Below, piece after piece: positions 23,181-54,690 of a stretch of 63,752 nt of DNA. The position numbers and the translations under genes are program-made. The notes under the pieces were generated by a model, which was not told the DNA's origin, made no database searches, and worked only from the letters and a program-made list of their open reading frames with translations. This DNA is from Rhynchobatus australiae. Lineage: Eukaryota. Location of the stretch: the NCBI GenBank assembly GCA_034780895.1, contig JAUZTB010000082.1:3165699-3229450 (forward strand). The letters are read 5' to 3'. The first letter of the stretch is position 1. Every line of letters starts with the position of its first letter.

Positions 23181-26100
23181 TTAAAATATATGCCTACTTC
23201 TGCTTTTGATGAACCCCAAGCATCCCTTCAGCTCGTTCAGTGAAATGGACTTGCTGCCATTGAGGTCACAGTATTCAATGAACTTTCTGGTGCACTTTCT
23301 TGGCTTTGCATTCTTCCTCAGGTAAACCTTAAAGGGCCTCAGCTCTTTCTCAGAGATCTCATTGTTGAAGTCCTTGTCCAGCCTGCCAAAGTACCAGCGA
23401 ATGGCACGGTCTTCCAGCAGAAAACCAACTGATCCTTCAGTAACTCTGCAAAGAAATAGAACACACATCTATGCCAAATGTAGACCAGAAAGTCTCAGGT
23501 TCCTTTCCTGTTGTGGGAATAACTGGTGGCGTCTAGATTGGCCTCAGCATGCCATAATAACCAATTAAAACCCCAGAACCCCCCACAACTCAGTCTACAG
23601 CAGTTCAAGATGGAAGCTGATCACCACCTTCTTGGAGGCAGGAGCTGAACAGCAACTGCTAGATGGGTCAGCAATGTGCACGCCCACAGGATTAACAATT
23701 TGACTTGAATATTGTCAACATTGTAATATGTCCCTTTTAAGTTTCATTTCTTCATCCAGATTTCAATCATCTGAAAAAATATTCCTAGAAATTGTGAAAA
23801 AGGAGTGTCAGTGGTGAATGCACTCCTATGCAGACAAGGCTTTTTGTAAGAACATTGGGATGACATATTAAAAGGCATGCCCAACAAATATTAATAATCC
23901 ACCACACCACAAAACAAAAGCAGCTGCATCAATTGTATACTCAGACCATAATACCCATTTTCGTCATCAGTAATGACAAAAAAATTACAACATTCCAGCC
24001 TCACTGGAACATGCTTACAATTTCTTGGAGTCCATGGGTATTAGAATAAAATCAGTGTGTATCACAAACACTAGCTGGGATTTTATGATTCAATTGATTT
24101 GATGAAGTGCATTATGCAGATACGTTCAGTGCTTCCTACTACTTGAACCAGTGTTAGAGACAAAGGATGTGCAAGTGTCCTATAACACCTATAGATGGAT
24201 GTATATAGGAAATCTAACATGGTGGACTTCCACTGAAGTTACAATAGCAGAGCAAAAGCAGCTCTGCTGAGATCACTAAACAGAAACAAAGAACGGCCAA
24301 GGAGAGAAGGAGAAATATCTGAGGGATTGTCCAGAATATCTAAAGTCAAAGTTCAACATGCAATTTTGGCTGGAGGTCAACTTTCAGACCATGTTAGAGA
24401 GACTACTGGCCGCCAGCCCTCAACCTAGGAAATTATGCCCGTGTCGACATTAAGCACTACTGGGTCAAAGACTTGCAGAGCAAAGTCCTGCACTGTCCCA
24501 ACAAGGCACCTCAATGCACTGCCTTTGCAACAAAAGTGTAACCCAATAATTTAATTTCTCCAGCCAATCTCATGCCATGCATGCACAAGATTGTCCATTT
24601 GTGATAAATTAGGTGGCATGTGTATTGTTCACCCCATCAACAGGAACAGGTGGAGACCACCTCACCCTGCTTGTTATTGTTGAACGAAAGGAATGCAAGA
24701 TTCAGTTGCAGNNNNNNNNNNAGATCTTGAGAAACAGGGGCTTATCGTCAATGCCCATTACTTAACAGCAGAAAACAAGTGTGCAAACTGATGCGCTGTG
24801 TAAAAAAAAACCAGGACTCCATAAAATGGAGCTTCTCAGGCATGCAGCTTCTAAGTGCACGTGAACTATACCTTCTCCATGTTATGTGCGAACCAGCCTG
24901 GGCCATATCCATAATGAGAGACTTCAATAATCCTGTTACAAACTCTGTCTTCTTCCCACCAGGGCAACCTGAGACAAACATTAGCAGGTCATAGTGATGA
25001 GCTTCAAGATATTTCTAGGCAAAGGCAGCAGACAATTTGAAAAGATCTAACAAACAGCAAGCAAGATGAATGCCAGTTAATTACCTTTTGGTGCTGGTTG
25101 AAAAGTGAATATCGCTCAACATACTAGGAAATCTCAATGTTCTCCTTCAGAGAACTGATATAATGTGTCTTACAGCAACCTAAATTGGGGCCTCAGTTTA
25201 ATATTGTATCTGAAAGACAGCAGATGGTGGTGCAACTACCCCTATCCCAAAGTAGCAAACTGGATTAGAAACTCAAATCCTGGCTGGGGATTGAGCCTAC
25301 AACTTGATGACCCTGAAGCAAGAGTGCATATACCAAGCCAAACTAACTGGTTAAAAAAAGGAATGTTTCAACAAGTCTAGTTGTAGTATAAATGGCTCCA
25401 CAGTCTGGGCTGCACTGTGCTTTATATTTCACCATTTTTCCAGACATTGTAAAAATGATATCAAACTGGCCTTTGATGACCCTTTATTCTTCATTCTCAA
25501 TCCAAACTTTTTACAAAGGAAAAATAAAAAGGCACAGAAACACCCTAACCATCCCACTCGGTATTTAGAAGCTTCCCTCACCCAAATATAATATAACCCT
25601 CTGTGCCCTTCTCCTTCACATCCTTATCCAGCCTCCCCCTAAATGCATTTATACTACTCCCCTCCACCTCTCCCTGGAGCAATGATTTCCAGATTCTCAC
25701 CACTCTTAGGGTAGAGGTTTCTTCCAAATCCCCAACTGGACTTCTGGGTGACCATCTCATATTGATGGTCTCTGGTTATGCACTTCCCCCACAAATGGGA
25801 ACATTCTCTCTGCATTCACTATTAAACCCCTTCATGATTATTACACAGGTCTCCCCTCACCTTTTGTTTCCAAAGAGAAAAGACACCCAGTCTTTTCATC
25901 CTTTCCTGATGGACAAACACTCATATTTCTGGTACCATCTTCGTACATCTCTGCAGTGTCTCCAGATTCTTTCATTAAAAAGGCAAGAAAACTATTACTC
26001 ACCTTGGAGTTTTCTGTCCCTGAAGAGGGGGCCCATCTCAGAGATTTTTGACCTTGCACCACTCCCACAGTCAGGTGTCTGATTACTGCAGAGATAAATA

Positions 26101-29100
26101 GTAAAACTGAAGCCCTTTGGTCTGAAAATGGACATCAGATATCACGCTGTCCCCCGGCTTTACTGGAATCCTCAGGCATTCCAATGAATTCCTCCCATAT
26201 TTTTGAGCTGTTGAGCAGACCACTTGTCTTTCTATTTCTGAACCCGAGAACCTCCCATTGGTGTAACGATTGGCCAGTGGAGTATTCTGTCCAGCTATTG
26301 CAATATGGCAGAGAGTCACGCAGCATGGAAACAGACCATTTGGCCCACCAAATCCATGCTGACCTTTCAGCAGCCATTTATCCAAGTCCTATGCTAATCC
26401 CATTTTATTCTCCCCACATTCCCATCAACTTGCCCCAGATTCTAGCACTCATCCCTACACAAATGGTGCAATTCACATCGGTCAATCAACCAATGTCTTT
26501 GGGACGTGGGAGGAAACCAGAGCACCTGGGAGGAAACCTGTGGTCACAGTGGGATCATGCAAACTCCACACATACAGCACCTGAGATCAGGAATGAACCT
26601 GGGCCTTGATGCTGCCAGGCTGTGGATCTGCTACCTATGCCAAGTTGCCATCTTTTGGTGAATTGTTTACTATCCTGCTCTATCACTAATTCTTGTTACT
26701 TGCAATTCGCACACTTACAACTTGACACATTAGCAACTAGTGACCACATCCCCAAAGTAATTTAGACTTTACAACCCATCTGTCCCTTTAAAAGGGATGT
26801 CCCAGCAGGCAGAATCGCTGTCTAATGGGCATTTACTCTCAAATGTAAAGTGCTAACTATTTGTATATAGGCAATGCCTTTAATATAGTAAAGCGGTCCA
26901 AGTCACTTCATTAAAAAAATGGACACCATGCCATTTTTAAGAGAGGGTAACCAAAAGCTTGCTCAAAGACGCAGGTATTTAGGAAAGTCGTGAAGAAAGT
27001 CCAGATTACTCACTAGCTATCACATTGAGGGAGGGGAGAAAACCTCTGCGTAAATTAAAGATTGGCTTTCCATATAATTCGCAAGAGAATTCACTCTACC
27101 AAGGACAATTTGTGTATATGGATATTTACAATTACAAGAATTTCATTCCCTCCACTCTCAATTGTTTTCCGCCCCCCTCACTTTTCACTCGCACTGCACT
27201 TTCCTCACTGACGAGCGAGTAAACAGACGATTTGCTGACAAAAGTTTATCCATAACCAGTCCTGAAGAGGAGCAGGGTAGGTGCTCAGTACACTGAACCC
27301 AACCCAAGAGTCAGAGCAACTTCTGTTCATAGTCAGTCACAACACATTCAGGGTATTCCTCATTGTGTACAGTGCTCACCGTGCGGTTGTGCCTTGGATC
27401 GGGAGGCCTGAATTCACCTGAACACACCAGCAGTATCCAGTGGCTTGGTGACACTGCACCTGTTTGTATAATCCACCAGTGCTGCACTGCGGGACAAAGG
27501 CTCCCTCGTACTGATGCTGTTTTGCTTCTTCGATGGCAGCTCGTCGCTCCTGTTCACATGACACCGGCTGGTCTAACAAGGGCACAAAGTACACAAGGGA
27601 CAGTCCAACATTTAAAAGCAAATGCACTTTCCCCAACTCCCTCTATCCTCATACTGTTTGCAGGGTCTTGACAGTGTCAGGCACAAGCCAGTGGTTAGCC
27701 AGATCCTGATTTATCCAAGAGAACAGTTAGATCCAAAAGACAGCATTATGAACAGTGCACCAATCCTTCAGTGCTGGCACTGGAATATTAACTCAGCTTT
27801 TGTCTTCATCTCTCTGGGTCCCATACCAGAACAACAACCTTCTGAATTAGAGACACAAGTTATTAGCAGCATGGACAGAGTAGGCCACAAAGATCCTGTG
27901 GGCCTGGTTCACCATTCAGTAGGATCACTTCTAACCAGCTGAACCACATCTGGCACATTAACATAGGTTTGTATCAAATGGGGTAGCTCATACTTACCAA
28001 GCTTCGAACTGCGGTTTGACTTGGCATCTCTGATGAATAGAAACCACAGGGCTGGATACATCAGTTCTACAGAACAAACGCAAAATATTAAAGTGGGAGA
28101 AAGCTTCTATATCCCTTAGGGTTACTTGTTCTTTTCCATACCTATTCAACCCCACAGGCACAACCTTCCCCACCATCAAGGATATCAAGAGGCGGGTGCC
28201 TCAGACTGCAGCATCCATCACTAAGGACCCTCACCATCTGGGACACCCTCTTGTTACTACCATTGGAGAAGGTACAGGAGCCTGAAGACCCACACTCAAT
28301 GATTCAGGAACAGCTTCTTCCCCTCCATCAGATTTCTGAACAATCCATAAACACTACCTCATTTTTTTGCACTATATTTTATAATTTATAGTAGTTTTAG
28401 GTCCTCACACTGTACTGCTTTTGTACAAGACTGATAATCTTGTGCCTGCACTACCGATCCAAGTGTTAGTTCAAATCCCACCGTGCCAGTGTAAAAAAAA
28501 TTCAATTACTGACTTCAAATGGAAATAAGTGACCATGAAGTTATTAGATTGTCGTCAAAGTCCAACTGGTTCTTGGAGGAAACCTTACCCACTCTGAACT
28601 TAAACATACTTGCAGTCCCACATCAATGTTGGTTGTCTCTTAGCTTCCTTCAGAAGTGACCCAGCAAAGCTAGGTCATATCAAACTGTTTGAACTAACAA
28701 CAATGAATGGACTGCGAATGCTATACCTGCCAATGATACCCACATCCCAGTAGTGAATAGACATTAGTCACTTCTACGTATTGTGTGCTGATAGAGAAAC
28801 CACATACTTCACCTGGATTTTTAGAGACCAGAAGAGCATCTTTATGCTTCTCTTCCACTGGCTTCTGCTTGGGATTGTCCACTGCCTCACCTGTTTGGGG
28901 GAAAATACAATCAAAAATATAGTCGGAAGGTTTTTGGAACTGGATCTTTGCTGTTTGGATTGGATGTCTCGATCATGAAGCAAGCTCCTTCTGCTGTTTG
29001 AGCAGAAATTCCAAGGAGATTTGCAAACCCAGTTATTACAAAGATGATAATTAAACAATTAATGTAGATCCCTGGGGCTTACTATCTCCTCAAAGCTTTC

Positions 29101-32100
29101 TGTTCTCGCTTGGAATTCCCAATCTTAGCTGCCCAACCACAAGTAAAACAAATCAGTGGTTGCTGCCCTCTATTGAGAAGGTGGCAGGGGGAACATTACT
29201 ACGATAGAACCCTTATGGGTCTAGTTAGCCTTGCCTTTTTGTGGCTACGTGGAACATTCTTTGTTCAAGTCTCTCAGATCCCCTCCTCATTTCCTCTTCC
29301 AGTACATTTGGAGAGAGTTTCAGTCCTGTTTCCTATTCACTCAACTACAACCCTTTCATTCCTTAAATCAGTAGCATACATAGTTGCTAGGTAGTGCCCA
29401 CCAAAAAAGATGCAGCGCAGATGATTAGAACATAATGTGGGCCGTGTACTTTTACCTTTGTTACGAGTCAGGCTTCTTGTGGTAGCTCGAAGCTTGGTTC
29501 CTTGTTCTGGGATCAGAGAAGAAAAGAATTGAAAAGACACTATTATTGAGGTTAGGGTTATCTATTCTACCCACACACTTGATTGGATGATCAGAAGCAA
29601 GAAGAGCCTTGAAAGGACGGTTTGCAAGAAAGGAGACGGCCTTGTGCAGTTCTAGTTTTGATGCTGTCACATGCACCACAGCCTATACTGTCCTCCACAC
29701 ACAAACAAGATGAGTTCTACATACTTCAAATCAGGTTCCTCAATAACAGGACATATACATGGATAGGAAAGGTTATGGGCCAAATTCAGGCAAATGGGAC
29801 CAACTTGGATGGGCTTCTTGGTCAGCATGGATAAGTTGGGCCAAAGGGCCTGTTTCCATGCTGTATTGCTCTATGATTCTATGACTCATGTGCAACAGTT
29901 CAAATCTTTCACACTTTTGGGATCCATAGTCATACCCTCAATAGTCTTCAGATCAACTTGCATTTTGATGGAAATAGAATATGAACTTTATGACATAAAA
30001 GGCAGCCATTCAGCCCATCTTGTCTGTGCCAGTTGAGAACAATAATGACCTAGTTTAATCCTACCTTCCACCACTAGGCCTAAAGCCTTGCCGGTCATGG
30101 CTCTTCAGTTACATAGAAAAGTGAGGGTTTTTAACCTAATCTTTCAGGCAGAGAGTTCCAGAACAGAGTTAAAAAAGCCCCTCTCATCATTCTACCAATT
30201 ACATTAAATCTATGACTGACTCTGCTCCTGGCTTTTAACCCTTTAGATAAGGAAATTAGATCCTTCCTATTTATCTAGGTCCCTCCCAAAATTCAGTACC
30301 TCCTCAATCTCCACATTCCAAAGAAAACAATCAAATCACTTGCCACAGCTGCAGTCTTCCAGTCCTGGCACCATCCTGGCAAATCGCCTCTGCACCTCTC
30401 CAGTGCGATCACATCTTTCTTGTAACGTGGTGACACAGTAGTCAAGTTGTGGCCTGACTAATGTCACTTGGAATCCTAGCAAAACCTCCCTGCTCTCATG
30501 TTCTGTGCCTGTTAACAAGTATTCAGCTAAACTAGGATCAACCAGTGCTGCTGCCTTTAAGCGTGTGGACTTGTACTCCAAAGTCCATCTGTACCACTGC
30601 ACTTGTCAATATCCGATCACTTATCCTGTATGTTCCTGCCCAGTTGTACCTCCCCGTTAGCTGACACTTCTGTGGATTGAATTCATTTGCCACTTCTCTT
30701 CCAAACTGATCATCTTCCTGGATACAATGTTGTTAATGCAGATTCTTTTGATGCATCCATGCAGTGTTCTCAAACAAAAATAACATCAAGCCTTGCAAGG
30801 AGACATTGGGACAGGGACGAGTACTTAGGAAAAGAGATCAGTTTTAAAGGAGCAACAGGAGGAGTGAAGAGACCAGGTGGGATTTACAAAGCTTTGGCAT
30901 TAGGTAGCCAAGGGCATAACTGCCAGTGATGGAATTGTGAAAATCAGGAATGGTCAAGTGGGTGGGAAGGATACAGATCTCAGAACATCAGAATGTACCT
31001 GGGAACACTTTACAGGAAAAATATTTACCATCTGGGATGTGAAGCAAAAGTTAACATTGNNNNNNNNNNNNNNNNNNNNNNNNNNNNNNNNNNNNNNNNN
31101 NNNTATGCAAAGGAACAGTGTTGAAATGATTTTAGGAAGAGAATTCCAAACTCCTGGGCTGCTGAAGGATTTTCCTCTGGTGATTTAATAAAAGTCTCCA
31201 AATGTAAAATAATTTTTTTAAAAAGTGGATTTCTGTTAAAGATTTGGATCAGAATCCCTTCAGTCTTGGAGTTTGATGCAACATTAGTAATAAGAGTTTC
31301 CCCGCTTAACACCTCCATTTCTCACCTTTTCCAGGTTTCCATCCTGTAGCTAAAGGGAGAATTTCTACATTAAACAGACTTAGCTATTTTCTATCCAAAA
31401 ATCACTAGCTCAAAGTTCAAAGTGAGGAAGATTACTGTTGGAATGAGAACTCCTTCCCATGTCAGACAACAACTAGTACAGACAAACATTTCTGGATCAA
31501 ATATGGCAGAGTTAGTGTCTCACTGTATGCCTCCAATATTGTCTCAGCCACAACTTTATTACAAAGTCTTACCAGATGATTATGCAATACAACCCCTCAA
31601 ATTAGTACCATCAGATGGACCAGGTACTCAGAACTAGATCACATCTACTCAGTTTATTTCTCAAATAGCCCCCAGATAAAGGGAGAATTTCATCCCAGCG
31701 TATTGAGCTCTTTTGAAATCTAGGTACCAATAATAGACATTGAATTATATTGCAATTTGGCAGTTAGTCACATTAGTTCTGTTCAGAAGTGTGGTGCACT
31801 GTACTGCACCAGAATCAACTAAAATGGCCAAAAGCTTCAAAAATTACCCATTCTGCCGGAGTCATGATCCCTCTGGGAAGCCTTGTCCTTTGTGGAATCT
31901 GAAAGGAAAATAAAGTTAGTTCCAGATAAATTATAGTTCTTTCATTGTACACCATATTAAGGATTCATCACACCCAACTTACAAACTTCCAGCTTAGTGT
32001 GTACACCAATAGGTACAGTGGCTATGCTCATGAAGTTTATTGTCATGTGCACAAGTACAGTGAGGTACAGGTACAATGAAAAACCTTGCTTGCAGCAGCA

Positions 32101-35100
32101 CAGGTACAGACAACAGAACACAAATTATACAGGACAGGAGAAAATAAAACTGCAAAACAAGACATTAAATGCAAAAAAGAGACAAGTCCATGGTAATGCA
32201 AGAGGTGGCCTCTAGTGATCCATTGCTGAGTTAGGATTAGAATTGTGCAGGTTGGTTCAAGAACCCAATGGTTGAAGGCCAAACAAACTTTTACTAATGA
32301 GTTATCTCCCTTATCCCTGGCTGTTGCACGTAGCATCGATTTCTCCTGTTTTGCAAAGCTACTTATGGATGAGATGGCAGTGTGGTGCTGGTGAGTAACA
32401 CTGGTGGAACACACTTTATGCAGTGTACATAGGCTCTGCTCTCCCTGACACTTCTTACTGGGCACCATTCCTTCTCCAAGTCAGAAGTTTGTGGTTGAAT
32501 TTCCACTCCAGAACCTCGAGCACAAAATCAACACCAACACTAATATGAAACTGGGGGAGTGCCACATCAGAGTTGTTATTCTTCAAATGAGGTGTTAAAC
32601 CAAGCTGATTGCCAGCCTGCATGTGTGGACATATTGTGATCTTACAGGTGGCCTCCTCAGTGTCTTGGTGAATATTTTTAATTCAGCTAATATAACCAAA
32701 AAGTCAGATTTTTGGTCATTATTGTTGCAAGGTTCCATTAACAATAAGCGTAGAAATTGGCTGCTGCATTTCCTCCATTAGCAAAATAACCATATTTCAT
32801 ATCTCATAAATGCAAGCATTTGATCCAAATTTACATAACCCTTTTGACATCTCATTTTAATGTTTATTACATGACCTTCTGTGACATTGCTTGTGGAGCG
32901 TGGAATACTGTTGTCACATCCAGCTGTTGAAAGGTTTGCCCCTTTAAAGCCAATGCTCAGCTACTACGATGCTGAGTTCCTCCAGCATCAGTGTTTTGCA
33001 TCTAGATTCCAGCATCTGCAGTCCTTTGTTTGTCTAACAGGGGCTTCTTGTTGTACAAACAGTTGCACGTTTCCTCTCAACTACCTGCCCAAATGGCATC
33101 AAGGAGACAAACAACTTCCAAATAATGACTGGCTTCCTTTACAGTTGTTTGGTTAAGTAGTTTGGGTTTTGGTGTCACATCTGGAACCTGACATCAGTCA
33201 AGGGCAAACTGAATCAACTGCGTTGACCTCCACACCCAGATACCCATTCCTACATCAGTAAATTGCAACAGTCAGAAATCACAGGAAAAACTCAGGAGGT
33301 CAGGCAGCATCTACAGAGAGAAACAGTCAATGTTGTGTTTCAGATTTCAATAAACTGCAATCAGATTTCTGAACAGTCCAGAATACTACCTCTTTTTTTG
33401 CACTATTTGTTTTTGTAATTTATAATATTATGTCTTTGCACTGTATTGCTACAAACAACAAATTTCACATCATACAAGTCAGTAATAATAAATCTTATTC
33501 TGACATTGCAATTCCCAGATTTCATAAGTCTCAGTTTCCCCATCTACCCGTTTCAAGAGTAAATATATTTAGAGAGTCCCGGTGGAGGAGCTTTGACCCA
33601 AAATGTTACTATATGTCATTCCAGATGCTGTCTGACCTGCTGAGTGATTCCAGCATTTTCTGTTTTGTTTCAATTTTCCAGCATCTATAGTTTATTTGAT
33701 TTTCATCTAAAGTAAATATTTGTTTCACTTCCTATTTCTGCAAATAAATTATCCAACAAGCAAAACAAACAATTTTTTTTTAAGGCTTCTTAGATTGACA
33801 AGCAGCTATAGACCACAGCACATATACCAATACCTGAGCAGGTCGGAGTCTGGTTGTGGACTGAAGACCCACTAACTGGTTTGCCCTCAGGTGTGACACA
33901 CCAGCAGTAGCCCGTTAACTTATGGCACTGAACCTGTTGAATCAAAGACAAAGTGGTAAACAATCATGCCAAGAAATTGAATTTCACACTCTTCTGGAGC
34001 AAACTAAAAGTGTGTCACATTTAGCATTAGTTTCCATTTTGATGCTCCGCAAGAAAATCTTGAAATTGGCCAAAAATGCATTACAAACAGCAGCATGGTG
34101 TTTTGTACATTAGAACCGTGCATTAAAATCAGGTCTGCATGGCCCCAGCAGAGCAGCAGGTAAAGTTCACGACTGCCATTTCATTGTCATTGGGAAAGGC
34201 GTCAGGTCTTAGTGAACTCTCAAGATGGCCACAGAACAGGTTGCCATAGAGATGTAGGAAAACATGGGGATGGGGGGACTAAACAGAAGTTATCTGGGCA
34301 GTCGCCATACAACCCTCTACCCTGATAGAGTCTCATCCACTGCACAGCAAGGGATGATCAAGGAGGCAAAAGGTAGCAGCAGCATGGAACTCGGATGTGT
34401 ACATGTGCACTATGCCCGAGAGCTGGCAATAGACTTGATGGGCTGAATGGCATCTTTCTGTGCCCAAAGAATACACAAGAACTGATGAATGTATAGAATG
34501 TTAGGGCTGGTTTGATCAGCTGAACTGTTCAATTTCTGTTCCTGCGTTCCCAACTTCATCTTGCCAGTTAAATGGAACTAGGTGATAAAATTGTCAAGAC
34601 ATAAAGCACCAGCAACCACAGCCTCTTGGAATGTTACTGCTGCCTCACACCGTATTTCCTGCATTGACCACAGTTTTTATGTTTCTGTGTCACAAGGGAG
34701 CAGATGGATAATTTACAGCAACAGCAAACTGCACATGGCCGATCCCTCTCTTTTTATACTTGCATTGGTAAGTTTTCACCTACTGAAGAGAGTCTGATTG
34801 TCCCTATAGTTCACTCACAAGTTAAAACCCAACAAGTGAAAGTGGGCCAATCAGTTCAGGAAAATAACTGATTTGCTTGTAATTTTAAATTTATCTCCCC
34901 ACTCAGCCTATTGCTCAGTTTACTCTTTAGAGATGAATGGACAAGTAGATTTTGCTCAGTGACTGAACCTATGGTCCTCCAAGCTCTCCAGCACATTACC
35001 CCATGGTGGCGTTGCTAGCTAATTAACAGAGGTTGATTGATATGGTTAGTTAGCGGCTCTAATTATTGGTCATGCTTTTCTATAATTTTTTTTTAAAGAG

Positions 35101-38100
35101 TATTTTCATGTCCATAACTTCCTCTGAATGTGGAGCATTTCAGTGCCATATCACACTGATACTTGGCAACCTTCACACAAGGGTCCATCTCCAAATAAAA
35201 GCCAGGCTTTTTGGCTTATGGAGAGTGGGAGCCAACAATATTCAGTGGAAATGGTCCTGAACCAGTTAGGCCAATTCCACCAATACCTCAACACCTACCT
35301 GCTTCTCTCCAGGAATACTTCAGTCAACCACGGCAAAAGCTCAGTTTGAAGAATAATTTGCAAAACAGCAAGTGATCACTATAAGTCAGTCCATCCACGG
35401 TACAGTTGGCCCTACAAGCTCAGAATCCTGAACTGTCTCAACAGGCTGTGTGTTAATTTGAATTCTTTTTTAAATTTAATTTTACAGAGTGTGGTAACAG
35501 GCCTTTCTGGCCCAACGAGTCCACGCCACCCATGTTAACCTACCCGTACATCTTTGGAACGTGGGAGGAAACGAGAGCATCCGGAGGAAACCCACACAGA
35601 CACAGCAGAACGTACAAACTCCTTATAGACAGCGACAGGAATCAAACCCTGATCACTGGCGCTGTAATAATGTCACGCTAACCGCTACTGTGCCGGAGAA
35701 CAGATCTCAGTGCACCGTTCAGAGTAGGGGGCAATCACCAAGTATCATAACCCAGAGGATACAGGAGCCTGAGGGCACATACCACCAGGCTCAAGGACAG
35801 CTTCTAGCCCACTGATCAGACTATTGAACAGTTCTTTTATGATGAGATGGACTCTTGACATCACAATCTACCTTGTTTGACCTTTCACCTTATTGTCCAT
35901 CTACAATGCACTTCCCTGCAGCTGTGACACTTTACTCTGTATTCTGTTACTGTTTTACCTTGTACTACCTCAATGCACTCTGTACTGACCCAATGTAACT
36001 GCACTGTGTAATAATTGACCTGTACGATCGGTATGCAAGACAAGTTTGTCTGCTGTACCTCAGTACAAGTGACAATAATAAACCAATTCCAACATTTACC
36101 TCTTATGCCACAAACTGTTTATTTGATCACTTGTCTAACTGCTGAACAGGAGATTGCTGCCTGTGGATTGGATGTATACATTATGACACCAAAATAATCT
36201 CTCTGGGTAAAAAAGTTTATCCTCACATCCTGTGTTTGGCCTCAGATATTCAACCCACATCTCATGGTCCTTGACCAACATTTTCCCCTCTATGTAGTCA
36301 TCTAAACCAGTTCACACCTCTATCAACTTTCTTTCATACAGGGAGAACAATCCCAGCTTCCCTAGTGTAATTTTACAAGCAAATCCCTCTTCCTTGGAAT
36401 TACTCCAGTAAATCTTCTCCTCTCGATAACCTTCGAACCTCCCCAAAGAGCAGCGAGCAGATTTTGTGCTCTGTCCAGTATCCTGACATATTGCAGAACT
36501 TCCTTGGTTATTTACCCACCTACAAACCATTAAAAGCCAAATCTGGCATCACAAAATAATTACTTCGATTTGTTTTACTCTCTTCTGCATTGTTTTCGAC
36601 TCAGATTGTCTTGTGCGCTAGGTCTTGGGTGTTTCACTTGGCTTGTCAGTTAACTAAACAAGACAGTGCTAAAACTGAGCAAACTATCAACCCATGCTAT
36701 ACATTTCCAAGTCTTACAGACATCACTGCACAGCGAATCACCCCATGTCTATCGAGTCTTCAAGCGATGAGCTCACCCAGAAGACTTAATCAATTCCAGG
36801 GCCGGACGTCATTGTTTGGTGAAAGTCTTCTCCAGTGTTACCAAGCCTCAGCATCTTAATGTCACAGTTCAACCGATACTCCACCCTTCAACCAACATTC
36901 CTCATACATTACTAAACCATCTGAGAAATACCAGTATCAGTGTTACAGGAGAAATTAAATTTCAAGCAGCTGAAACACATTCTCTAGAAAGGAAGAAAAA
37001 TAATCAAAATGTTTCTTAAAATTCCATTTCTCAAATTGCTCAGATGATTTGATCTGTAACCGTTATAATTTAACCACTTCCACGGTGAAGTCATTTACTT
37101 GCTCAACATCTCCTAAATATTCCTCAGCAGCTTCTTTTCTAGTTAAAAACTGTCCTCACTCATTCTGCTCCATTGGCTCAAGATTAAAGTGAGCGGTCTG
37201 ATGTGTCTTTTGGGTTTTATCACATCCTGGGCACTGAGTTGTACACCAGGATATCTGAAGGTTATGCTCAATACAAATTGGGGTAGTGAATCAGAAACCT
37301 GATTTATTCTGGGGATATGAATGTTGCTAGCAAGACACAGAGCATCTTCCTTGAACTTGGTAGTCCATGTGGTGAATGTGTTCTCATTGTGTTGACGGGC
37401 CAGAAGTTCCAAGATTTTGATCCAGCAACAATGTGTGAATGGCGATACATTTCCAAGTCAGATTGGAGAGGATCTTGAACTTTCTGGCATATCTACACAT
37501 TTGGACTTGTTGAGCCTGTGGTGATACAGGTTTGGAAAGTGCTGTCAAAGCAGGCCTTGGAGAGCAATCCCAGTGGATTTCACAGCTCCAATATTTGAAG
37601 GAATTAATGTTTGGGGGTGGATGAAATACCAATTATAAGGGCACTTCCTTTGCTCATTCTCAGCTTCACTAGATGCCCCAAATAATTGTACAGATACCAA
37701 CTTAAGCAACCCTGCTGACTTTCACATCAACATTAACCTTCTGGTAACACAACTGAAAGTTAAGCCTTAGTCAAGAGATCACTAACTGCAGTCAAGTCAC
37801 TCTGCACTCAAAAGTGCAGTAAATTTGTTTTAACTATAAATTTGTTACACAATATATCAAAAAATATTGGAGAATTCTGTTAAACTCAAGTATTTCTGTA
37901 ACTTCACCATTTTACTTGTGCATCATTTCAACATCAGCATTTGCCCACATTACCTGTGCAAAGGAGCCATCCTCATTGCATTCTGGCACAATGATGGAGT
38001 CTGTTGCCTTCCTTGTTTGTGCCAGTGCTTGGGCTCTGTCTTCCTGGCATCTCACTTTAGCCCTCTCTGAAACACAGATCAACCCATTTCAGAAATAACC

Positions 38101-41100
38101 AGTGCCAATGCATTCCCAGTAACTCCACTCACTACTGCAATCTCCAGGGTCAAAATGACATGACAATCAACTGTCTCTTCAAAGACTCACTTGTACTTCA
38201 GAGACTATTCCAATTTCCTGTTATGATGCAAACCAAATTAAAATCAAAGCAAGCCAGCACCATAACCAAGGTCATTGACTGGAACCTCAAGTTCTGGGTT
38301 GATATTCAAGAGGTTTAAAACTTAGTTCAAGGGATAGCACAAAAAGGTACTGGAGGAACTCAGCGGGTCAGGCAGCACCTGCTGAGGGAAATGGACAGTT
38401 GATATTTCAGGTTGAGACCCTTCATCTGGACTGGGACTAGAAGTCAGTAGTGCAAGGGATGGCAAGTTTGCTTACTGATGGGAGATTGAGTATATTAGGT
38501 CTGGAATTATGTTCTTGGACACAAGAACAAGGGGAGATACCATCAAAATAGAACAAAAATTCTTAACGGGCTAGCTGCCGGGATGAGGGTTTCCCCCAAC
38601 TTAGGGCCAGGGAGCACCCAAAATAAGGGGTAGATCATTTAGGACTGAGATGAGGAGATATTTCACTCAGAGGGAGGTGAACCTGTGGAATTCTCTACCT
38701 CAAAACACTGTGGAAGTTCAGTCTGCTCAAAATAGATCGATAGATTTCTGGGCAGCAAGGAGATTGAGGGCACAGGGAACGTACAGGAAAACATCGATCG
38801 GCCACAATGCTAATGAATGGCGGAGGTGGCTCCAAGGGCGAGATGGCCTACTCGTGCTCCTACTTTTAGGTTCTTATGGCTAGAGGGAAGGGTTCCATCA
38901 GGTCCCCGCAAAGGATGTCCAGCAATTGGTCACGTAAAGGATGATCCATTCACAGCTGCTGTACTAGGACAATCCAGCCATTAGTACAGAAACCACACCT
39001 TTTGTTTGAGGGCATTCATCTTGGAAGTTCAGTCTGAGGATTAGGGCAAAGGGTAGGTAGAGGGTCAAGGGGAGGTTAGCTAGCCAGAGATTGGTTGGAG
39101 AGGGAAATTGGTTGAGTCAGCAGTAGTTGAGGTTGGGCTGGCACAGAGGAGCAGAAGCGAGCTTCACATGCCTGGGTAGAGCATTGAGTGTTCACTAACA
39201 AGTGTAGGGTTGGGTGGGAAGTTTAAGCACAGACTTGAAAAAGGATCTACCTCCCAGCTCAGTGTTGGGACTGACTCATGTAGATCACCTTTGGGGGAAA
39301 AAAAATGAAGCAGGTCCCACTTGCATGAACAGAAACTGAAGTGGCATCCAGCCACAAGTTTCCCATGTGTGTCTGACACAAAGGACGGAGGAAAACTACA
39401 GACTTTATGCAACTCCCTGTAAAAGGCCATAATTTCCCACCAGGTCTTCTCCCACCAAAACTGAATCTGGTACCACACAAAACACTACACAATTGTTACA
39501 TGAACCAATTTCTAGGCAAATGTTTTTGAAGATTAACTGGTGCAAGATAAAGGAAAATCTACAGCAGTAATCAATAAAGTTTAATAAAGAAGTCCGACAG
39601 AGCATTAAAAATTGGAATGATTGCTGACATGTGCAGCTTTGTGCTGAATTGGTAACAGAGCTCATTTCTGTCAACTGGCAAAATATTGATTTTGAACAGA
39701 TCACTTTCAAAATGTTTAGACCCTAAACACTGAATTCTGTATGCTTCAGAGTAATGAGAATTAACATCAAGTTGTATTGTTGTGAATTGACTGAAATGGC
39801 CCTAGAACATCCCCTGCCCCACAATTACATGCCAAAAGGCAAGTTCTCTTAGCTAGAGAGAAAATTACCAGAATCTGGAGAAAAATGGGAGGAAAACTGT
39901 CAGTTCATTCGCAGAGCTAACCTGGTCATGAGGAACCAAATGGGGCTCCATCTAAAAGATCAAAAGAAAACCAGAGCAGGGGTAGGCCACTCAACCTCTC
40001 AAGTCTACCTTGTCTTTATGATCTGCCCATCTCCTCCTCTCTTCTATTGCAGATTTCTATCATCTACTGCCTCTTGAAATACCCCCAATGATCTAACCTC
40101 CACAAACCTTTGGGTAGAGAATGCCAGAAATTCACCTCCCTGTGATGCCAGAGATTCACCATCTATGCTATAATTGGTGGAACTACCTTCAACTGTCCCT
40201 CGTGCCCACAAGCTCCTAGCACCTTGGCACCCAAGCTTTGCATTCACTTTGGCTTCTCAGTAATCACTCAACATCTGTGCAACATTTCCTTGTTGCTTAT
40301 CTTCCCATTCTGGATTGGTTTCAGAGCTAGTATAATGTTCTTTATTCCCTTTCGTGCAGCTGAGTGGATCATCTTTCCTTAGCCCTGCACCCTGCTCTTG
40401 CAGGGAGATTTATGGAGAATGGGCAGGGGCAGGGCAATGCAGGTCAGGGAAATCCCTCAAGGAGTTATGCAAGGAACACCCAACTAATTGCTCCAATAAT
40501 TTAACATTATCCTGTCATCCAATATTTAAACAGATGACTTGCACATGATTAATTGGAGTGTACAGAAGCAGGCTACAGGCCCCTGTAGGAGAGGTCCCCG
40601 TTTAGTTGCCCGGAGGGGTATCAGAGACTGGAGTTTCTCCTCTGCAGTGCCACTGTGCCAAGTGGAGGAGCATCTTTGTGGATCCTGGAGGCACCACAAA
40701 CATATAGACCTTGTGCAGAAANNNNNNNNNNNNNNNNNNNNNNNNNNNNNNNNNNNNNNNNNNNNNNNNNNNNNNNNNNNNNNNNNNNNNNNNNNNNNNN
40801 NNNNNNNNNNNNNNNNNNNNNTGGATCCTGGAGGCACCACAAACATATAGAACTTGTGCAGAAATAGGCCATGCACCATTACAGATTCACTTCAGTGTTT
40901 GTCCTCCTGCCTCAACACACCTAATTATTAGAGTTGTACAGCACAAAAAACAGGCAGTGCAGTCCATGGTGTCCATACCAACCACTGTACTCATCTACAC
41001 TAGTCCCACCCCCGTTTGGTCTGTCGCCTTCCAGAGCTTGCCGATGCGAGAGCTTGCTTAATGTTTAAGTGCTGAGAGTTTATCTGCCTCCACCACCTCC

Positions 41101-44040
41101 TTGGGCAGTGCATTCCATGGCCTATTCACAACCACTATATGATTGGCCTAGGTCAGCTGTTTTATGAAAGGGAAAACTTGTTACTTTATAGATTCTTCGG
41201 GTGAGAGGGAATCAAGGCCCAGAAATCATCATCGGGCATGGGAGAGATGGGAAAAGCTCCTGGTTTGGGAGGGTAATTGGTTGCGGCTAATTGCTTCTAG
41301 TGTGTAGGCAAGTGGTAGAATCTGGGAGAAGTTGATGGCAACGTAGGAAGAACAAAGTGGGATTAGTACAAGTGGATGCTCGACAGTTGGTGTGGACTTG
41401 GTGTCTGAAGGGCCTGTTCCAATGTAGGACCGACTCCACGAGTAATGAGACTTGCTTTAGTGGAGCCACGGATTAGCAGTGCTGCTAAAAGCTAGTGGTC
41501 CTGGCAGTGAGTAGTGACAGTTGCACGTCAACATTATGTGGTCTAATTTCCCCCACCATCTCCTGAAGGAGCCAACTGCAAGTGATGCTGCTGCAAGTTT
41601 TTTTAAAATTATATTACACCTCACTGTAATTGTGCACATAACAATAAACAACTTGCACGGTGAATGATATCAATCGATACACATTAGAGGCAGAAGTTGC
41701 ATGTGTTGTGGGAGTATGGCTCACGCCAGAAGGTACCTGGTCAAATTTTTGGAGCAACAGACAAAACCCATCAGTGGTCATGATACCAGTTCACAGCAGG
41801 ATTGCCCACACGCCATGATGTGGCACTGAAATAAACCACACCAAGTGTCCACACAAACCTAACTTGATTTTCAGAAGACATTCAAAAGGATGCCATAGAA
41901 TAAGGTTCTCCTGAAAGAAAGTAGAACTTATGGGATTGGGAACAATTCTAAACTGGTTTAAAGGAGAGGGAAAGATTTAAAAAGGGACTGGAGGAGTAAC
42001 CTCTTTGCACAGGGGGTGGTGGGTATATGGAACGAGCTGCCAGAGGAAGTGGTTGAGGCAGGTACAACAACATTTGAGACACTTGGATCGGTACATAGAT
42101 AGGATAGGTTTAGAGGGATATGGGCCAAGTGTAGGTAAAATGGAACTAGCTTAGATGGGCATCTTATTTGATGTGGATGAGTTGGGCTGTACGACTTGGA
42201 GGACTAATCAAAGTACAGAAGAGAACAAGAATAAATCAGTTCACTCAGGAAGAGGGTAGGGTGTGACTCGTGTAGTGCTACACACAGTGCTTGGGCCTTC
42301 ACTGCATAACATCCATAAGCAGGACTTATAGATGAGGGGACAGCGTAATACGTCTACATTTGTAAAGGAGGTAAAGAGGCTACAAAACATTATAACGTGA
42401 AGAGGCAAGAGAATAGGCAGTTTAATGAAGGGCAGCATCACATTTTTCATTTTAGCAGAAAGAATGGAAGTCCAGAATAGACTTAAGGTGGGAAACTATT
42501 AAAATAGTGGGATTCAGGAGTTACATACCTGAGTATGCGAATCAGTGTTGATTTGCAGGTACAACAAGCAATAGGAAGACATGGGCTGAGGAATCTATCA
42601 CTCAGAGCCATGTGCTTACATGGCAATTGAGTTTTCCAAAACTTTATCAATCTCTAAACAAGATTAGATATGTAGCGAGTGACCTTTGCACTTCACAAGT
42701 TTCTTCCTGGTCCTCCTTATGAGGAAAGGACTCGTAGATGAACAGAACCCATGTGGACTATATCACCCAAAGCAGACTCACGTTCTTGATGCCTGCTTCA
42801 GGTTAGTCAAGGAGCCCAACCTTGCCTTGTCCACTGCCAGGATCTTTCAAGCCAATCATTTTCCAGGTAGGTCATTTTCATACTTCAACCCTACCCACCA
42901 TCTCAGCCACTCAAGACCCCAATCATGTGCCCAATTCACCCCATCCAATCGTCTGACTGACCCCTCCCCAGAAGCAACTCTCATTTCCGTTCATTAAAAA
43001 ATGGTACCAAGCATAACAGGGTTTTGGAACAGCCTACAAACCCAAAGTATCAATTGTTAGGTCATCAAAAGGTTACTTGAAAAGAAAGATAACAAAACTT
43101 TAAAACGTGCAGTTATGATACCAACTAATAAAACAAGAGCATTGAGTTATAGAGCCAAGGAGACTGCTGCCCTCAGATTTACTCAAATTCTTGGAAAAAA
43201 TATCAGAGACTTGTTGACAAAAGGAACTCCAGAGTTATTATGCATTTAGATTTTTCTTCTTGACATGCAACAACTTATTTAGCAACCCTAAAAGGAACAA
43301 AACATCACAAGAAGTTTCAAATGACTATAGTCAGACAGAACTTGATGCTGGTGCCTGGGAAAAATATTAACACAAAGTGGCCAAAAGGTAAAAGCTTCAG
43401 AGCAAAGGGAGGAAGTGGGGGAGACACTAGAGACGGCAGACGCTGGAATCTGGAGCAACACACAACCTGGAGGAACTCAGAGGGTTGGGCAGCATCTGTA
43501 GAAGGAAAGGAATCATTGATGTTTCAGGTTGAAAACCTGCATCTGGAACAGGTGGAGAGATTTTAAGGTGGGCCTTGGCAGCTGAAGACATGGCTGGTGG
43601 TGGTTGAGCAATTAAAGTCAGTGTTCCATTAGCTGAAGGGTAGAAAAGATGACTTCTTGGAGTTTAGGGTTGGAGGACATTACAGAGATTGATATGGCCA
43701 TGGAGGGACAAGTCAGAGTTTATTGTCGTGTGTGCAAGTCCATGTGTGCACAGGTGCAATAATAAAAACTTACTTGCAGCGGCACCACGGCATCAGATAC
43801 ACAACATCCACAAAACACAAATTAAACGTTAGTAGTCAACTGATGAATGGGAGTCAGGCCACACTTACCGCTGCATCGACTCCGTGGCATCGTTTCGAGG
43901 GTCGGGTCCCTGCATTTTGCACGTTGGAAGGCACAGTGGGATTTGTAGAGCTTCCTGTCACTCCCACAAACTGGCTTCTGTTGGGCTCTGGAGCAGTCAA
44001 TGTTGCAAAGGCCCCCACGGTCACTCTCAGCTATAAGAAA
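23181..44040 (-). CDS. SMOC1: SMOC-family gene (SMOC1-like; Kazal - TY1 - linker - TY2 - EF-hand/EC), multi-exon, 5'-incomplete (signal-peptide exon not found in window)
   Basis: Ten core exons with canonical AG/GT ends join in frame (172+113+100+51+51+69+193+83+97+248 nt) and give the SMOC domain order. Motifs CRDPTL, RAQAL, KPVSGSSV, CPGGKKTEF and ELKGCLG resemble SMOC1 more than SMOC2 as recalled. Orthology to SMOC1 itself is uncertain. Confidence 0.93.
23198..23445 (-). CDS. SMOC1: SMOC EF-hand pair exon (RVTEGSVGFLLEDRAIRWYFGRLDKDFNNEISEKELRPFKVYLRKNAKPRKCTRKFIEYCDLNGSKSISLNELKGCLGFIKSR)
   Basis: Acceptor tctatttctttgcag; two EF loops DKDFNNEISEKE and DLNGSKSISLNE. Ends either at donor GAA|gtaggc or reads through to TAA at 23181-23183. 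Confidence 0.96.
24872..24968 (-). CDS. SMOC1: SMOC EC-domain N-terminal exon (GCPGGKKTEFVTGLLKSLIMDMAQAGSHITWR)
   Basis: Acceptor tgtttgtctcag, donor AAG|gtatag; 97 nt, phase 1 to 2; GCPxxKKxEF..LL..L..DM motif. Confidence 0.94.
25600..25960 (-). mobile_element. CR1 3' fragment
   Basis: RVVRIWKSL...FRGRLDKDV in the ORF track. Confidence 0.65.
26003..26085 (-). CDS. SMOC1: SMOC exon ending TY2 (NQTPDCGSGARSKISEMGPLFRDRKLQ)
   Basis: Acceptor tttatctctgcag, donor AAG|gtgagt; 83 nt, phase 2 to 1; PxC...AR...F(K/R)DRxL pattern. Confidence 0.93.
26310..26640 (-). mobile_element. V-SINE (older subfamily with CR1-derived tail)
   Basis: gtgggaggaaaccagagcacctgggaggaaacc...tgcaaactccacac. Confidence 0.7.
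27380..27572 (-). CDS. SMOC1: SMOC TY2 exon (DQPVSCEQERRAAIEEAKQHQYEGAFVPQCSTGGLYKQVQCHQATGYCWCVQVNSGLPIQGTTAR)
   Basis: Acceptor cccttgttag, donor ACG|gtgagc; 193 nt, phase 1 to 2; GGLYKxVQCHQxTGYCWCV motif. Confidence 0.97.
27998..28066 (-). CDS. SMOC1: SMOC-specific linker exon (ELMYPALWFLFIRDAKSNRSSKL)
   Basis: Acceptor ttttgcgtttgttctgtag, donor TTG|gtaagt; 69 nt, phase 1-1; YPALW matches the PTLW motif of SMOC1/SMOC2. Confidence 0.9.
28150..28420 (+). mobile_element. Rex1/Babar 3' end
   Basis: gcagcatccatcactaaggaccctcaccat...ggtacaggagcctgaagaccc; near-identical to 54290-54690. Confidence 0.75.
28813..28890 (-). CDS. Candidate extra linker exon (GEAVDNPKQKPVEEKHKDALLVSKNP)
   Basis: Acceptor tattttcccccaaacag, donor CAG|gtgaag; 78 nt, phase 1-1, open, purine-rich and hydrophilic. 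Confidence 0.6.
29456..29506 (-). CDS. SMOC1: SMOC linker exon (EQGTKLRATTRSLTRNK)
   Basis: Long pyrimidine tract tcttttcaattcttttcttctctgatcccag, donor AAG|gtaaaa; 51 nt, phase 1-1; positional counterpart of SMOC1 DDGSKPTPT. Confidence 0.75.
30000..30720 (-). mobile_element. CR1 3' fragment
   Basis: TLVRPQLDYCV...VQRRFARMVPGL in the ORF track. Confidence 0.7.
31326..31349 (-). CDS. Candidate 24-nt cassette micro-exon (ATGWKPGK)
   Basis: Acceptor ttctccctttag, donor AAG|gtgaga; symmetric phase 1-1 and open. No homology support. Confidence 0.45.
31848..31898 (-). CDS. SMOC1: SMOC linker exon (DSTKDKASQRDHDSGRM)
   Basis: Strong acceptor ttattttcctttcag, donor TGG|gtaatt; 51 nt, phase 1-1; resembles SMOC1 SVTDKPLSQGNSGRK as recalled. 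Confidence 0.85.
32030..32280 (-). mobile_element. Rex1/Babar 3'UTR tail (same family at 43715-43830 and 63490-63700)
   Basis: agtttattgtcatgtgcacaagtacagtgaggtacaggtacaatgaaaaac. Confidence 0.7.
32475..32790 (+). mobile_element. Deu-domain SINE (SacSINE1/AmnSINE1-like), degenerate
   Basis: agtcagaag...ccactccagaa...gagcacaaaatc...atgaggtgttaaaccaag...aaattggctgctgcatttcct. Confidence 0.6.
33283..33705. mobile_element. Two Penelope terminal-repeat pieces in opposite orientation, separated by a Rex1 tail (33360-33505)
   Basis: aactcaggaggtcaggcagcatct ... cagatgctgtctgacctgctgagt. Confidence 0.55.
33834..33933 (-). CDS. SMOC1: SMOC exon 4: TY1 C-half (VQCHKLTGYCWCVTPEGKPVSGSSVHNQTPTCS)
   Basis: Acceptor ttcaacag, donor CAG|gtattg; 100 nt, phase 0 to 1; QC and CWCV thyroglobulin motifs. 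Confidence 0.96.
35480..35695 (-). mobile_element. V-SINE
   Basis: gtgggaggaaac...ggaggaaacccac...gtacaaactcctt...cgctaaccgctac. Confidence 0.8.
35750..36090 (+). mobile_element. Rex1/Babar 3' end (similar tail at 56620-56880)
   Basis: atacaggagcctgaggg...caaggacagcttc...acaagtgacaataataaacc. Confidence 0.7.
37954..38066 (-). CDS. SMOC1: SMOC exon 3: TY1 N-half (ERAKVRCQEDRAQALAQTRKATDSIIVPECNEDGSFAQ)
   Basis: Acceptor ctgtgtttcag, donor CAG|gtaatg; 113 nt, phase 1 to 0; PEC..DGSF thyroglobulin motif. Confidence 0.95.
38340..38435. mobile_element. Penelope-like terminal repeat with hammerhead-like remnant
   Basis: ctggaggaactcagcgggtcaggcagcacc...gatatttcaggttgagacccttcatctgg. Confidence 0.7.
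38530..38880 (+). mobile_element. CR1 3' fragment
   Basis: MRRYFTQREVNLWNSLPQ. Confidence 0.75.
41960..42580 (+). mobile_element. CR1 fragments (3' end plus degenerate RT middle)
   Basis: gtggtgggtatatggaacgagctgccagaggaagtggttgaggcagg (VVGIWNELPEEVVEA). Confidence 0.65.
43420..43550. mobile_element. Penelope-like terminal repeat copy
   Basis: gcagacgctggaatctggagcaac...ggaggaactcag...gcagcatctgtag...gtttcaggttgaaaacctgcatctgg. Confidence 0.65.
43869..44040 (-). CDS. SMOC1: SMOC exon 2: Kazal/follistatin-like domain (FLIAESDRGGLCNIDCSRAQQKPVCGSDRKLYKSHCAFQRAKCRDPTLETMPRSRCS)
   Basis: Acceptor ttgctgtttcag, donor G|gtaagt; 172 nt, phase 0 to 1; six-Cys Kazal pattern with PVCGSD. Confidence 0.95.
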
Positions 44041-53899: not shown

Positions 53900-54190
53900 G
53901 CAAGCTGTGCAGTGCTGCGTTACTGCAGGTAGTGCTGCTCCAGCAGTCCAGGTTCAGATCCCATGTGGAATTTGCAAATGCACCTCCCTATCACTGCCCA
54001 AGTTCTGCAGTTTCCTCCCACATGTGCTGGTTGGTAGGGTAATTGCCCAGTGTAAGTTATTGCTGATGAATGTGGCTGCTGGAAGAACCAGAGTCATTGA
54101 TGGGCAGGTGGGAATGTTACAGGGAAATGGGTGGAAGAACGGGAAAATAGCTCAGAGCAGCATAGACTTGTTGGGCCGAATGGTCTCCTA
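53900..54190 (+). mobile_element. V-SINE, degenerate
   Basis: caggttcagatcc...gttctgcagtttcctcccaca...ggtaattgcccagtgtaagtt. Confidence 0.55.
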
Positions 54191-54289
54191 TGTTGCAAGA
54201 TTAAATACCAGTACCACATTCCTCCAAGAGCCTGAAGTCAGCAAAGTTGATCATGAAACAGATTTTCATATCCAGCCAACTGACTTATC

Positions 54290-54690
54290 AACGTCCAAAA
54301 TGGATTCTGACTGGTTGCGTCACCACCTGGTGCAGAGGCTCCAATCCACAGGATCACGAGCAGCTGCAGAGGGTTGTAGACTCAGCCAGCTCCATCACGG
54401 GCACAACCCTCCCCACCATCAGGGACATCAAGAGGCGGCGCATCAAGAAGGCAGCATCCATCACTAAGGACCCTCACCACCCGGGACATGCCCTCTTCTC
54501 GTTACTACCATCGGGGAGGAGGTACAGGAGCCTGAAGACCCCCACTCAATGATTGTGGAGCAGCTTCTTCCCCTGCCTCCAGAATGGTCTGTGAACCCAT
54601 GAATACTACAATTTAAAAAGAATAGGTAATTTATAGCAATTATGTCTTTGCACTGTACTGCTGCCACATCATACCAATCTGATTCAGATT
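54290..54690 (+). mobile_element. Rex1/Babar 3' end
   Basis: ILTGCVTTW...LQRVVDSASSITG...KKAASITKDPHHPGHALFSLLPSGRRYRSLKT. Confidence 0.88.

What the first reader, a model, noticed from the sequence alone, without database searches (positions are those of the whole stretch)
23181..44040. Divergent SMOC1-like gene: possible third vertebrate SMOC paralog kept in cartilaginous fishes
Seen: a complete Kazal-TY-linker-TY-EC architecture with all domain cysteines and SMOC exon phases. Known: mammals have only SMOC1 and SMOC2, and chondrichthyan orthologs are usually slow-evolving. Inference: this protein is nearer SMOC1 but differs at many positions I recall as conserved (GSDRKLYKSHC vs ASDGRSYESMC, ELMYPALW vs EITAPTLW, LLKSLIMDMAQA vs LLDALTTDMVQA). 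No SLC8A-type terminal exon, the tail-to-tail neighbour of human SMOC1, is visible in the 21 kb downstream. This fits a genome-duplication ohnolog sister to SMOC1 that was lost in tetrapods.
Basis: partly seen in the sequence, partly recalled or inferred. Interest (0 to 1): 0.7.

Follow-up and report, generated by a model that had tools for sequence, protein, structure and literature searches.

The report
Third vertebrate SMOC gene, shark copy
This shark or ray gene is a real third member of the SMOC family of secreted growth-signal regulators, but it is not special to cartilaginous fishes: bony fishes, lungfish, salamanders, lizards and turtles have it too, and a 2018 survey had already listed it as missing from mammals and birds.

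Summary
The gene is real. Eleven coding exons on the minus strand (44040-23181) splice into an open 423-aa Kazal-TY-TY-EC protein; the signal-peptide exon was not found in the window. It is 87-92% identical to elasmobranch 'SMOC1-like' proteins and 54-56% to chondrichthyan SMOC1. Trees place it in a fully supported third SMOC clade. A shark-specific SMOC1 duplicate is rejected (AU p<0.001).

'Lost in tetrapods' is wrong. The clade holds 30 tetrapod rows (salamander, caecilians, squamates, turtles), plus coelacanth, lungfish, gar and 63 teleost rows. All 47 bird, crocodilian, mammal and frog rows fall outside it.

Hara et al. 2018 (PMC5901865, Table S10) already lists this paralog as an unnamed 'elusive gene' beside SMOC1 and SMOC2, without cartilaginous fishes. 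'Sister to SMOC1' is favoured but not shown: it ties with a position outside SMOC1+SMOC2, and synteny could not be tested.

The likely function is a secreted, calcium- and heparan-sulfate-binding modulator of BMP signalling. Its basic patch is weaker than in SMOC1 (10 versus 13 K/R, with a conserved K-to-E change). Modest interest.

The parts
43869..44040 (-). Coding exon 2 (first in the window): follistatin-like/Kazal domain
   Evidence: Pfam Kazal_2 E 2.4e-9; 57 of 57 residues identical to Cetorhinus SMOC1-like
37954..38066 (-). First half of thyroglobulin type-1 domain 1
   Evidence: Exon search; Pfam E 5e-5; tblastn
33834..33933 (-). Second half of TY domain 1 (QVQCH...CWCV)
   Evidence: Pfam E 2.6e-11
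31848..31898 (-). Linker exon, 51 nt, phase 1-1; absent from the Leucoraja isoform
29456..29506 (-). Linker exon, 51 nt, phase 1-1
28813..28890 (-). Optional 78-nt linker exon, phase 1-1; seen only in elasmobranch members, skipped in Heptranchias X3 and Hypanus X2 isoforms
27998..28066 (-). Linker exon with the hydrophobic ELMYPALW motif (EITAPPFW in gar, EITAPTLW in SMOC1)
27380..27572 (-). Thyroglobulin type-1 domain 2, main exon
   Evidence: Pfam E 2.2e-18
26003..26085 (-). End of TY domain 2 and spacer to the EC domain
   Evidence: 28 of 28 residues identical to Heptranchias
24872..24968 (-). [quoted passage not shown]
23181..23445 (-). EC domain: two EF-hand loops, the basic heparin-binding-type stretch and the TAA stop
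   Evidence: Pfam SPARC_Ca_bdg E 4.3e-10; loops and charge

Best explanation
The window holds the elasmobranch (probably batoid) ortholog of a third jawed-vertebrate SMOC gene, an unnamed paralog of SMOC1 and SMOC2 that arose before sharks and bony fishes split. SHOWN: intact gene, full domain set, membership of one clade from sharks to turtles, coexistence with SMOC1, faster evolution than SMOC1. INFERRED: it arose in the early-vertebrate genome duplications, most likely as the second-round sister of SMOC1 (about 60-65%), sits on smaller chromosomes, and was lost separately in mammals, archosaurs and frogs. Mechanism, inferred from SMOC1: the protein is secreted (signal peptide seen in orthologs), binds calcium through two EF hands, binds heparan-sulfate proteoglycans through the basic stretch of the EC domain, and tunes BMP signalling. 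The TY-containing part damps the signal inside cells; the EC domain widens BMP range by competing for heparan sulfate. Its basic stretch carries fewer positive charges than SMOC1, so matrix binding is probably weaker.
For: Gene model. Clade support: SH-aLRT 100; 100/100 and 99.9/100 with ultrafast bootstrap; FastTree 1.0, holding 103 of 187 named rows. AU rejects 'shark copy sister to shark SMOC1' (p 9e-10 LG, 2e-4 JTT) and 'shark and bony copies are two different paralogs' (p<=0.0014). In 7 of 7 species with both, the paralog and SMOC1 are only 44-54% identical. In 6 of 6 species pairs the paralog is less conserved than SMOC1 (e.g. Cetorhinus-Narcine 83 vs 92%, Cetorhinus-Rhinatrema 54 vs 74%). 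In 4 of 4 same-species pairs it lies on the smaller contig. Hara et al. 2018 Table S10 lists the paralog in gecko, anole, python, coelacanth and gar with 0 bird and 0 mammal orthologs, paired with SMOC1 and SMOC2. For SMOC1 sisterhood: best likelihood under both models and SMOC2 sisterhood marginally rejected (AU p 0.017, 0.034); gar and coelacanth keep E[IM]TAPPFW, close to SMOC1 EITAPTLW. Function: both EF-hand loops keep D at position 1 and E at 12; heparin binding by the EC basic cluster (PMC3578922); BMP inhibition and range expansion by SMOC1 domains (PMC5360445).
Against: The order among the three paralogs is unresolved. A quick mixture-model tree put the paralog outside SMOC1+SMOC2 (support 89); AU cannot separate that from SMOC1 sisterhood; informative sites are 5 vs 5 vs 1; an earlier run with unmasked partial rows rejected none of the three. 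SMOC2 and outgroup rows are unnamed and thin (one full-length SMOC2-like row). No neighbouring gene was detected in the window, so there is no direct synteny. Absences rest on ranked lists cut at 120 and on annotation: the 2018 table scored 0 for Pelodiscus and Thamnophis, yet one search finds the gene in both genera. No functional or expression data exist here for the paralog.
Confidence: 0.82

Rival explanations
1. Same third paralog, but the second-round sister of SMOC2 (it would lie in the Dact4/NCX4 region), or an older duplicate that branched before SMOC1 and SMOC2 split.
For: The mixture-model quick tree places it outside SMOC1+SMOC2 (support 89), and AU keeps that topology (p 0.50-0.51). 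The shark motif YPALW resembles the SMOC2-like YPTLW. Dact4 and NCX4 have similar patchy distributions (PMC4236578; PMC2408596). The paralog fails PF16597, which both SMOC1 and the SMOC2-like row match.
Against: SMOC2 sisterhood has AU p 0.017-0.034. A basal position is what long-branch attraction of a fast paralog towards the outgroup would give. In the 2018 table the gecko accession lies 10 numbers from a CIPC-like gene and 22 from a CYP2-group gene, which hints at the region paralogous to SMOC1's (human map positions recalled; accession order is only a hint).
Confidence: 0.3
2. One reading: a paralog kept in cartilaginous fishes and lost in tetrapods.
For: The closest relatives are all elasmobranch (87-92%), and no mammal, bird, crocodilian or frog row falls in the clade (0 of 47).
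Against: 30 named tetrapod rows, lungfish, coelacanth, 2 gar rows and 63 teleost rows are in the same clade. Splitting shark and bony copies into different paralogs is rejected.
Confidence: 0.03
3. A fast-evolving SMOC1 ortholog, or a chondrichthyan-specific SMOC1 duplicate.
For: Databases name it 'SMOC1-like', and SMOC1 is the closest named family outside the clade.
Against: Cetorhinus and Narcine each have a separate conventional SMOC1. AU p<0.001 for a shark-specific duplicate. The other two SMOC genes of the source genome itself could not be searched.
Confidence: 0.02

Closest known systems
'Elusive gene' AmnPhylome_0000799_sub_001, SMOC1-like (Hara et al. 2018, PMC5901865, Table S10)
   Same: A third SMOC group beside SMOC1 and SMOC2, present in squamates, coelacanth and gar, with 0 bird and 0 mammal orthologs. 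This matches the clade found here by taxa; the accessions were not cross-checked by sequence.
   Different: The table has 5 species, no cartilaginous fish, and zeros for turtles, amphibians and teleosts; the main text never mentions SMOC. Here the clade extends to sharks, rays, lungfish, salamander, caecilians, turtles and teleosts.
[quoted passage not shown]
   Same: Kazal-TY-linker-TY-EC order, 22 cysteines, two EF hands, basic EC stretch.
   Different: Only 54-56% identical to chondrichthyan SMOC1; no PF16597 linker match in the Cetorhinus ortholog; 11 near-fixed differences between the clades, among them K-to-E at window residue 368; basic stretch 7-11 K/R in 12 members against 13 in 3 of 3 SMOC1.
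SMOC2
   Same: Same architecture.
   Different: 47% identical to an unnamed teleost-like SMOC2 row (assignment to SMOC2 recalled from motifs).
Patchily retained genome-duplication paralogs such as FoxG2, Dact4 and NCX4/SLC8A4
   Same: Kept in fishes and reptiles, missing in mammals and birds; FoxG2 and the elusive set evolve faster than their retained paralogs.
   Different: A different protein family; this paralog is also in salamander and caecilians, and whether it shares their chromosome region is untested.

Membership tests
SMOC family | Follistatin-like/Kazal domain, two TY domains, C-terminal EC domain, in that order | tested here: met
   Pfam on window exons and on the Cetorhinus ortholog
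SMOC family | N-terminal signal peptide | tested here: inconclusive
   Exon 1 not found in the window; orthologs begin with a hydrophobic leader; no signal predictor was run
SMOC family | Two EF-hand loops and a basic cluster in helices E-F of the EC domain | tested here: met
   Loops DKDFNNEISEKE and DLNGSKSISLNE; 10 K/R between them; feature described in PMC3578922
SMOC family | Binds heparin and calcium, modulates BMP signalling | not testable with these tools
   Inferred from SMOC1
SMOC1 orthologs | Branches inside the SMOC1 clade | tested here: not met
SMOC1 orthologs | SLC8A3/SLC10A1 neighbourhood (recalled) | tested here: inconclusive
   No Pfam-recognised neighbour among 161 of 161 downstream and 120 of 181 upstream stretches; the window is too short to reach neighbours
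Third SMOC paralog ('elusive' SMOC1-like of Hara et al. 2018) | One clade with the coelacanth, gar and squamate SMOC1-like proteins | tested here: met
   Support 100; alternatives rejected
Third SMOC paralog ('elusive' SMOC1-like of Hara et al. 2018) | Absent from mammals and birds | tested here: inconclusive
   0 of 14 mammal and 0 of 13 bird rows in the clade, but the lists are cut at 120 and depend on annotation
Whole-genome-duplication ohnolog | Duplication older than the shark/bony-fish split | tested here: met
   Both the paralog and SMOC1 clades hold chondrichthyans and osteichthyans
Whole-genome-duplication ohnolog | Lies in a block of paralogous neighbours (paralogon) | not testable with these tools
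   No eukaryotic genome collection; only indirect hints from contig size and accession order

The most novel reading that the evidence does not exclude
The third SMOC is a functionally shifted BMP modulator. A conserved charge reversal (K to E at window residue 368) and a thinner basic patch weaken heparan-sulfate binding, so it diffuses further or leans towards BMP inhibition rather than range expansion. It was lost at least three times (mammals, archosaurs, frogs). No paper found describes it, so fish and reptile studies of smoc1 and smoc2 may overlook a third redundant or opposing gene, and database names (often plain 'SMOC1') hide it.
Probability: 0.2. Interest if true: 0.55.

Novelty: new member of a known kind. 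Interest (0 to 1): 0.3.

Why it matters
It corrects the usual statement that vertebrates have two SMOC genes and extends an unnamed, table-only paralog back to the root of jawed vertebrates. In practice, several database entries named 'SMOC1' (Anolis, Microcaecilia, Latimeria, Larimichthys, Esox) or 'SMOC2' (Pelusios) are this paralog, which can mislead orthology and expression work. It is another case of a well-described pattern, the patchy loss of genome-duplication paralogs, so a specialist would find it tidy rather than very surprising.

Tried and rejected
Exon 1: an ATG-to-donor scan and tblastn with four shark leaders gave only chance matches. Alternative last exon (...TNKP in Heptranchias, Narcine, Leucoraja): two pattern scans of 1-23190 found none. 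Neighbour genes: Pfam on 161 of 161 downstream stretches of 50 aa or more gave one sub-threshold Nup153 match (17.8 bits, cut-off 25), taken as chance; 120 of 181 upstream stretches gave nothing. Rfam 0 matches; tandem repeats 0.

The protein atlas only returned SMOC clusters. The AlphaFold model of the Cetorhinus ortholog was too poor to use (mean pLDDT 52, pTM 0.27), and no fold search was run. The careful mixture tree did not finish; the quick tree is reported. The first AU run was spoiled by non-homologous ends of two partial rows and was repeated with them masked. P0039 (Chelonoidis), first labelled as the paralog, proved to be SMOC1.

Literature: 'SMOC3', 'smoc1-like / smoc1l / SMOC-3 / third SMOC / smoc paralog' and searches found no paper describing a third vertebrate SMOC. 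Subscription papers, such as the 2006 thyroglobulin-domain survey (recalled, not read), were not searchable. Dact paper supplements: 12 of 14 files searched, no SMOC. The search for human neighbour coordinates in a cut supplement found nothing.

Full report
OBSERVATION. Six-frame translation and motif search located SMOC-type exons on the minus strand, and tblastn with five elasmobranch homologs confirmed them. Eleven exons (44040-43869, 38066-37954, 33933-33834, 31898-31848, 29506-29456, 28890-28813, 28066-27998, 27572-27380, 26085-26003, 24968-24872, 23445-23181) have AG/GT ends and give an open 423-aa frame ending in TAA. Pfam recognises Kazal, two thyroglobulin type-1 domains and the SPARC calcium-binding domain. 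The protein has 22 cysteines, like basking-shark SMOC1. The signal-peptide exon was not found in the 19.7 kb upstream, so it lies beyond the window or in a gap. Agreement of intron phases with SMOC1 and SMOC2 genes was not tested.

RELATIVES. A search with the last exon returned 8 proteins among 37 candidates: six elasmobranch 'SMOC1-like' proteins and two caecilian ones. The Cetorhinus ortholog gave 602 hits, of which 120 were listed. A profile of 11 clade members gave 735 hits among 8000 scored candidates, 120 listed. A profile scan of 1.84 billion cluster representatives listed 150 rows without names. The window protein is 87-92% identical to the six elasmobranch proteins, 51-57% to sarcopterygian 'SMOC1-like' proteins and 54-56% to chondrichthyan SMOC1. 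It groups with batoids in two trees, so the source is probably a ray or skate; that is inference only.

TREES. In a 57-row tree and a 33-row tree, both quick mixture-model trees, the window protein falls in a clade with support 100 that joins elasmobranchs, lungfish, coelacanth, ray-finned fishes, amphibians, squamates and turtles, separate from SMOC1 of the same lineages. A FastTree of all 187 named rows (five unnamed Logan rows left out) put 103 in this clade: 6 elasmobranch, 1 coelacanth, 1 lungfish, 3 amphibian (salamander, two caecilians), 17 squamate, 10 turtle, 2 gar and 63 teleost. The other 84 fall outside it, among them all 13 bird, 1 crocodilian, 14 mammal and 19 frog rows (taxa counted by hand from the names; rows are 90% clusters and isoforms, not species). 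Constrained trees on 23 rows and 291 domain columns (10 of the 33 rows dropped, mostly long or redundant ones) rejected a shark-specific SMOC1 duplicate (AU p 9e-10 and 2e-4) and both ways of making the shark and bony copies different paralogs (p<=0.0014). They marginally rejected sisterhood with SMOC2 (p 0.017, 0.034) and did not separate sisterhood with SMOC1 (p 0.53, 0.55) from a position outside SMOC1+SMOC2 (p 0.51, 0.50). Informative sites against one outgroup were 5:1:5.

RATE AND LOCATION. The paralog is less conserved than SMOC1 in 6 of 6 species pairs. Contig lengths have a median of 39 Mb for 23 paralog records and 156 Mb for 17 SMOC1 records, and the paralog is on the smaller contig in 4 of 4 same-species pairs. 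These rows were picked by hand: teleosts, birds, mammals, frogs, lungfish and apparent scaffolds (for example Callorhinchus, Lerista, Varanus) were left out, and species are not independent, so this is suggestive only. It fits the tendency of loss-prone duplicates to sit in microchromosome-derived regions (PMC5901865, passages).

SYNTENY. No other gene was recognised in the window. NCX2 and NCX3 descend from one first-round precursor (PMC2408596, passages), so a second-round sister of SMOC1 could equally sit beside SLC8A2, and 23 kb is short. Smoc2 sits by Dact2, and Dact1/3 and Dact2/4 are the second-round pairs (PMC4236578, passages and section 15). SMOC1 is on human chromosome 14 (PMC10208646, one supplement row). 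If SMOC1 and SMOC2 belong to different first-round blocks (recalled), the third gene should be sister to one of them, and the trees prefer SMOC1. One weak hint agrees: the gecko accession of the paralog is close in number to a CIPC-like gene and a CYP2-group gene.

PRIOR KNOWLEDGE. Six searches found no paper describing a third SMOC; a 2026 review listing names only SMOC1-2 (PMC13414566, start of abstract). But Hara et al. 2018 (PMC5901865; seen: passages, section 9, rows of Table S10, a term search of 12 other supplementary files; six files and one oversized file not seen) list 'SMOC1-like' as one of 469 elusive genes, in gecko, anole, python, coelacanth and gar, paired with SMOC1 and SMOC2, with no bird or mammal ortholog. 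The elasmobranch copies are also already in public annotation under automatic names. What this work adds is the extension to cartilaginous fishes, lungfish, amphibians, turtles and teleosts, and the tests of monophyly.

MECHANISM. SMOC1 binds heparin and heparan sulfate through a basic cluster in helices E-F of the EC domain (PMC3578922, passages and section 17). In Xenopus and cell assays the construct without the EC domain inhibits BMP signalling, while the EC domain alone enhances it and widens its range by competing for heparan sulfate (PMC5360445, passages). The window protein keeps both EF-hand loops and the basic stretch. The stretch has 10 K/R against 13 in 3 of 3 SMOC1 proteins and in the SMOC2-like row; 12 clade members have 7-11 (the gar row did not parse). 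One of 11 near-fixed differences between 29 paralog and 26 SMOC1 rows is K to E at the start of this stretch (residue 368), and another puts an acidic residue in the first EF loop (D361). I therefore infer a secreted BMP modulator acting like SMOC1 (about 75%), probably with weaker matrix binding (about 35%). None of this was tested; the structure model was unusable.

VERDICT. The claimed distribution is wrong, sisterhood with SMOC1 is likely but unproven, and the paralog was already catalogued in a supplementary table. Novelty: new member of a known kind. Interest 0.3.

Noticed in passing
window 28813-28890 (-): A 78-nt phase 1-1 linker exon seen only in elasmobranch members of the 20-row alignment and skipped in some isoforms, making the shark linker longer and more charged (88 aa, 18 K/R).
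   Followed up: partly
window 23181-23200 (-): The last exon can read through to a stop (…SRSRHIF, like Cetorhinus and Hypanus) or may use an internal GT donor to a further exon (…SRTNKP in Heptranchias, Narcine, Leucoraja). That further exon was not found in the window.
   Followed up: partly
P0125, P0142, P0270-P0337: Ray-finned members of the clade sit on a long branch and often carry Ser/Pro-rich inserts before the EF hands. No cypriniform, bichir, sturgeon or chimaera row appeared in the clade within the listed hits.
   Followed up: no
P0007, P0012, P0013, P0081, P0271, P0332: Database names 'SMOC1' or 'SMOC2' are attached to proteins that belong to the third paralog.
   Followed up: yes
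window 1-63752: About 9% of the window lies in short dispersed repeats shared within the window, and there are 15 N runs of 10-183 bases; no tandem repeats or Rfam families.
   Followed up: no
window 53682-54464 (+): A 261-codon stop-free stretch in the presumed first intron with no Pfam match; its 3' end overlaps one of the dispersed repeats.
   Followed up: partly
P0132: An unnamed invertebrate-like SMOC used as outgroup has two EC domains, as described for Drosophila Pentagone; vertebrate SMOCs, this paralog included, have one.
   Followed up: no
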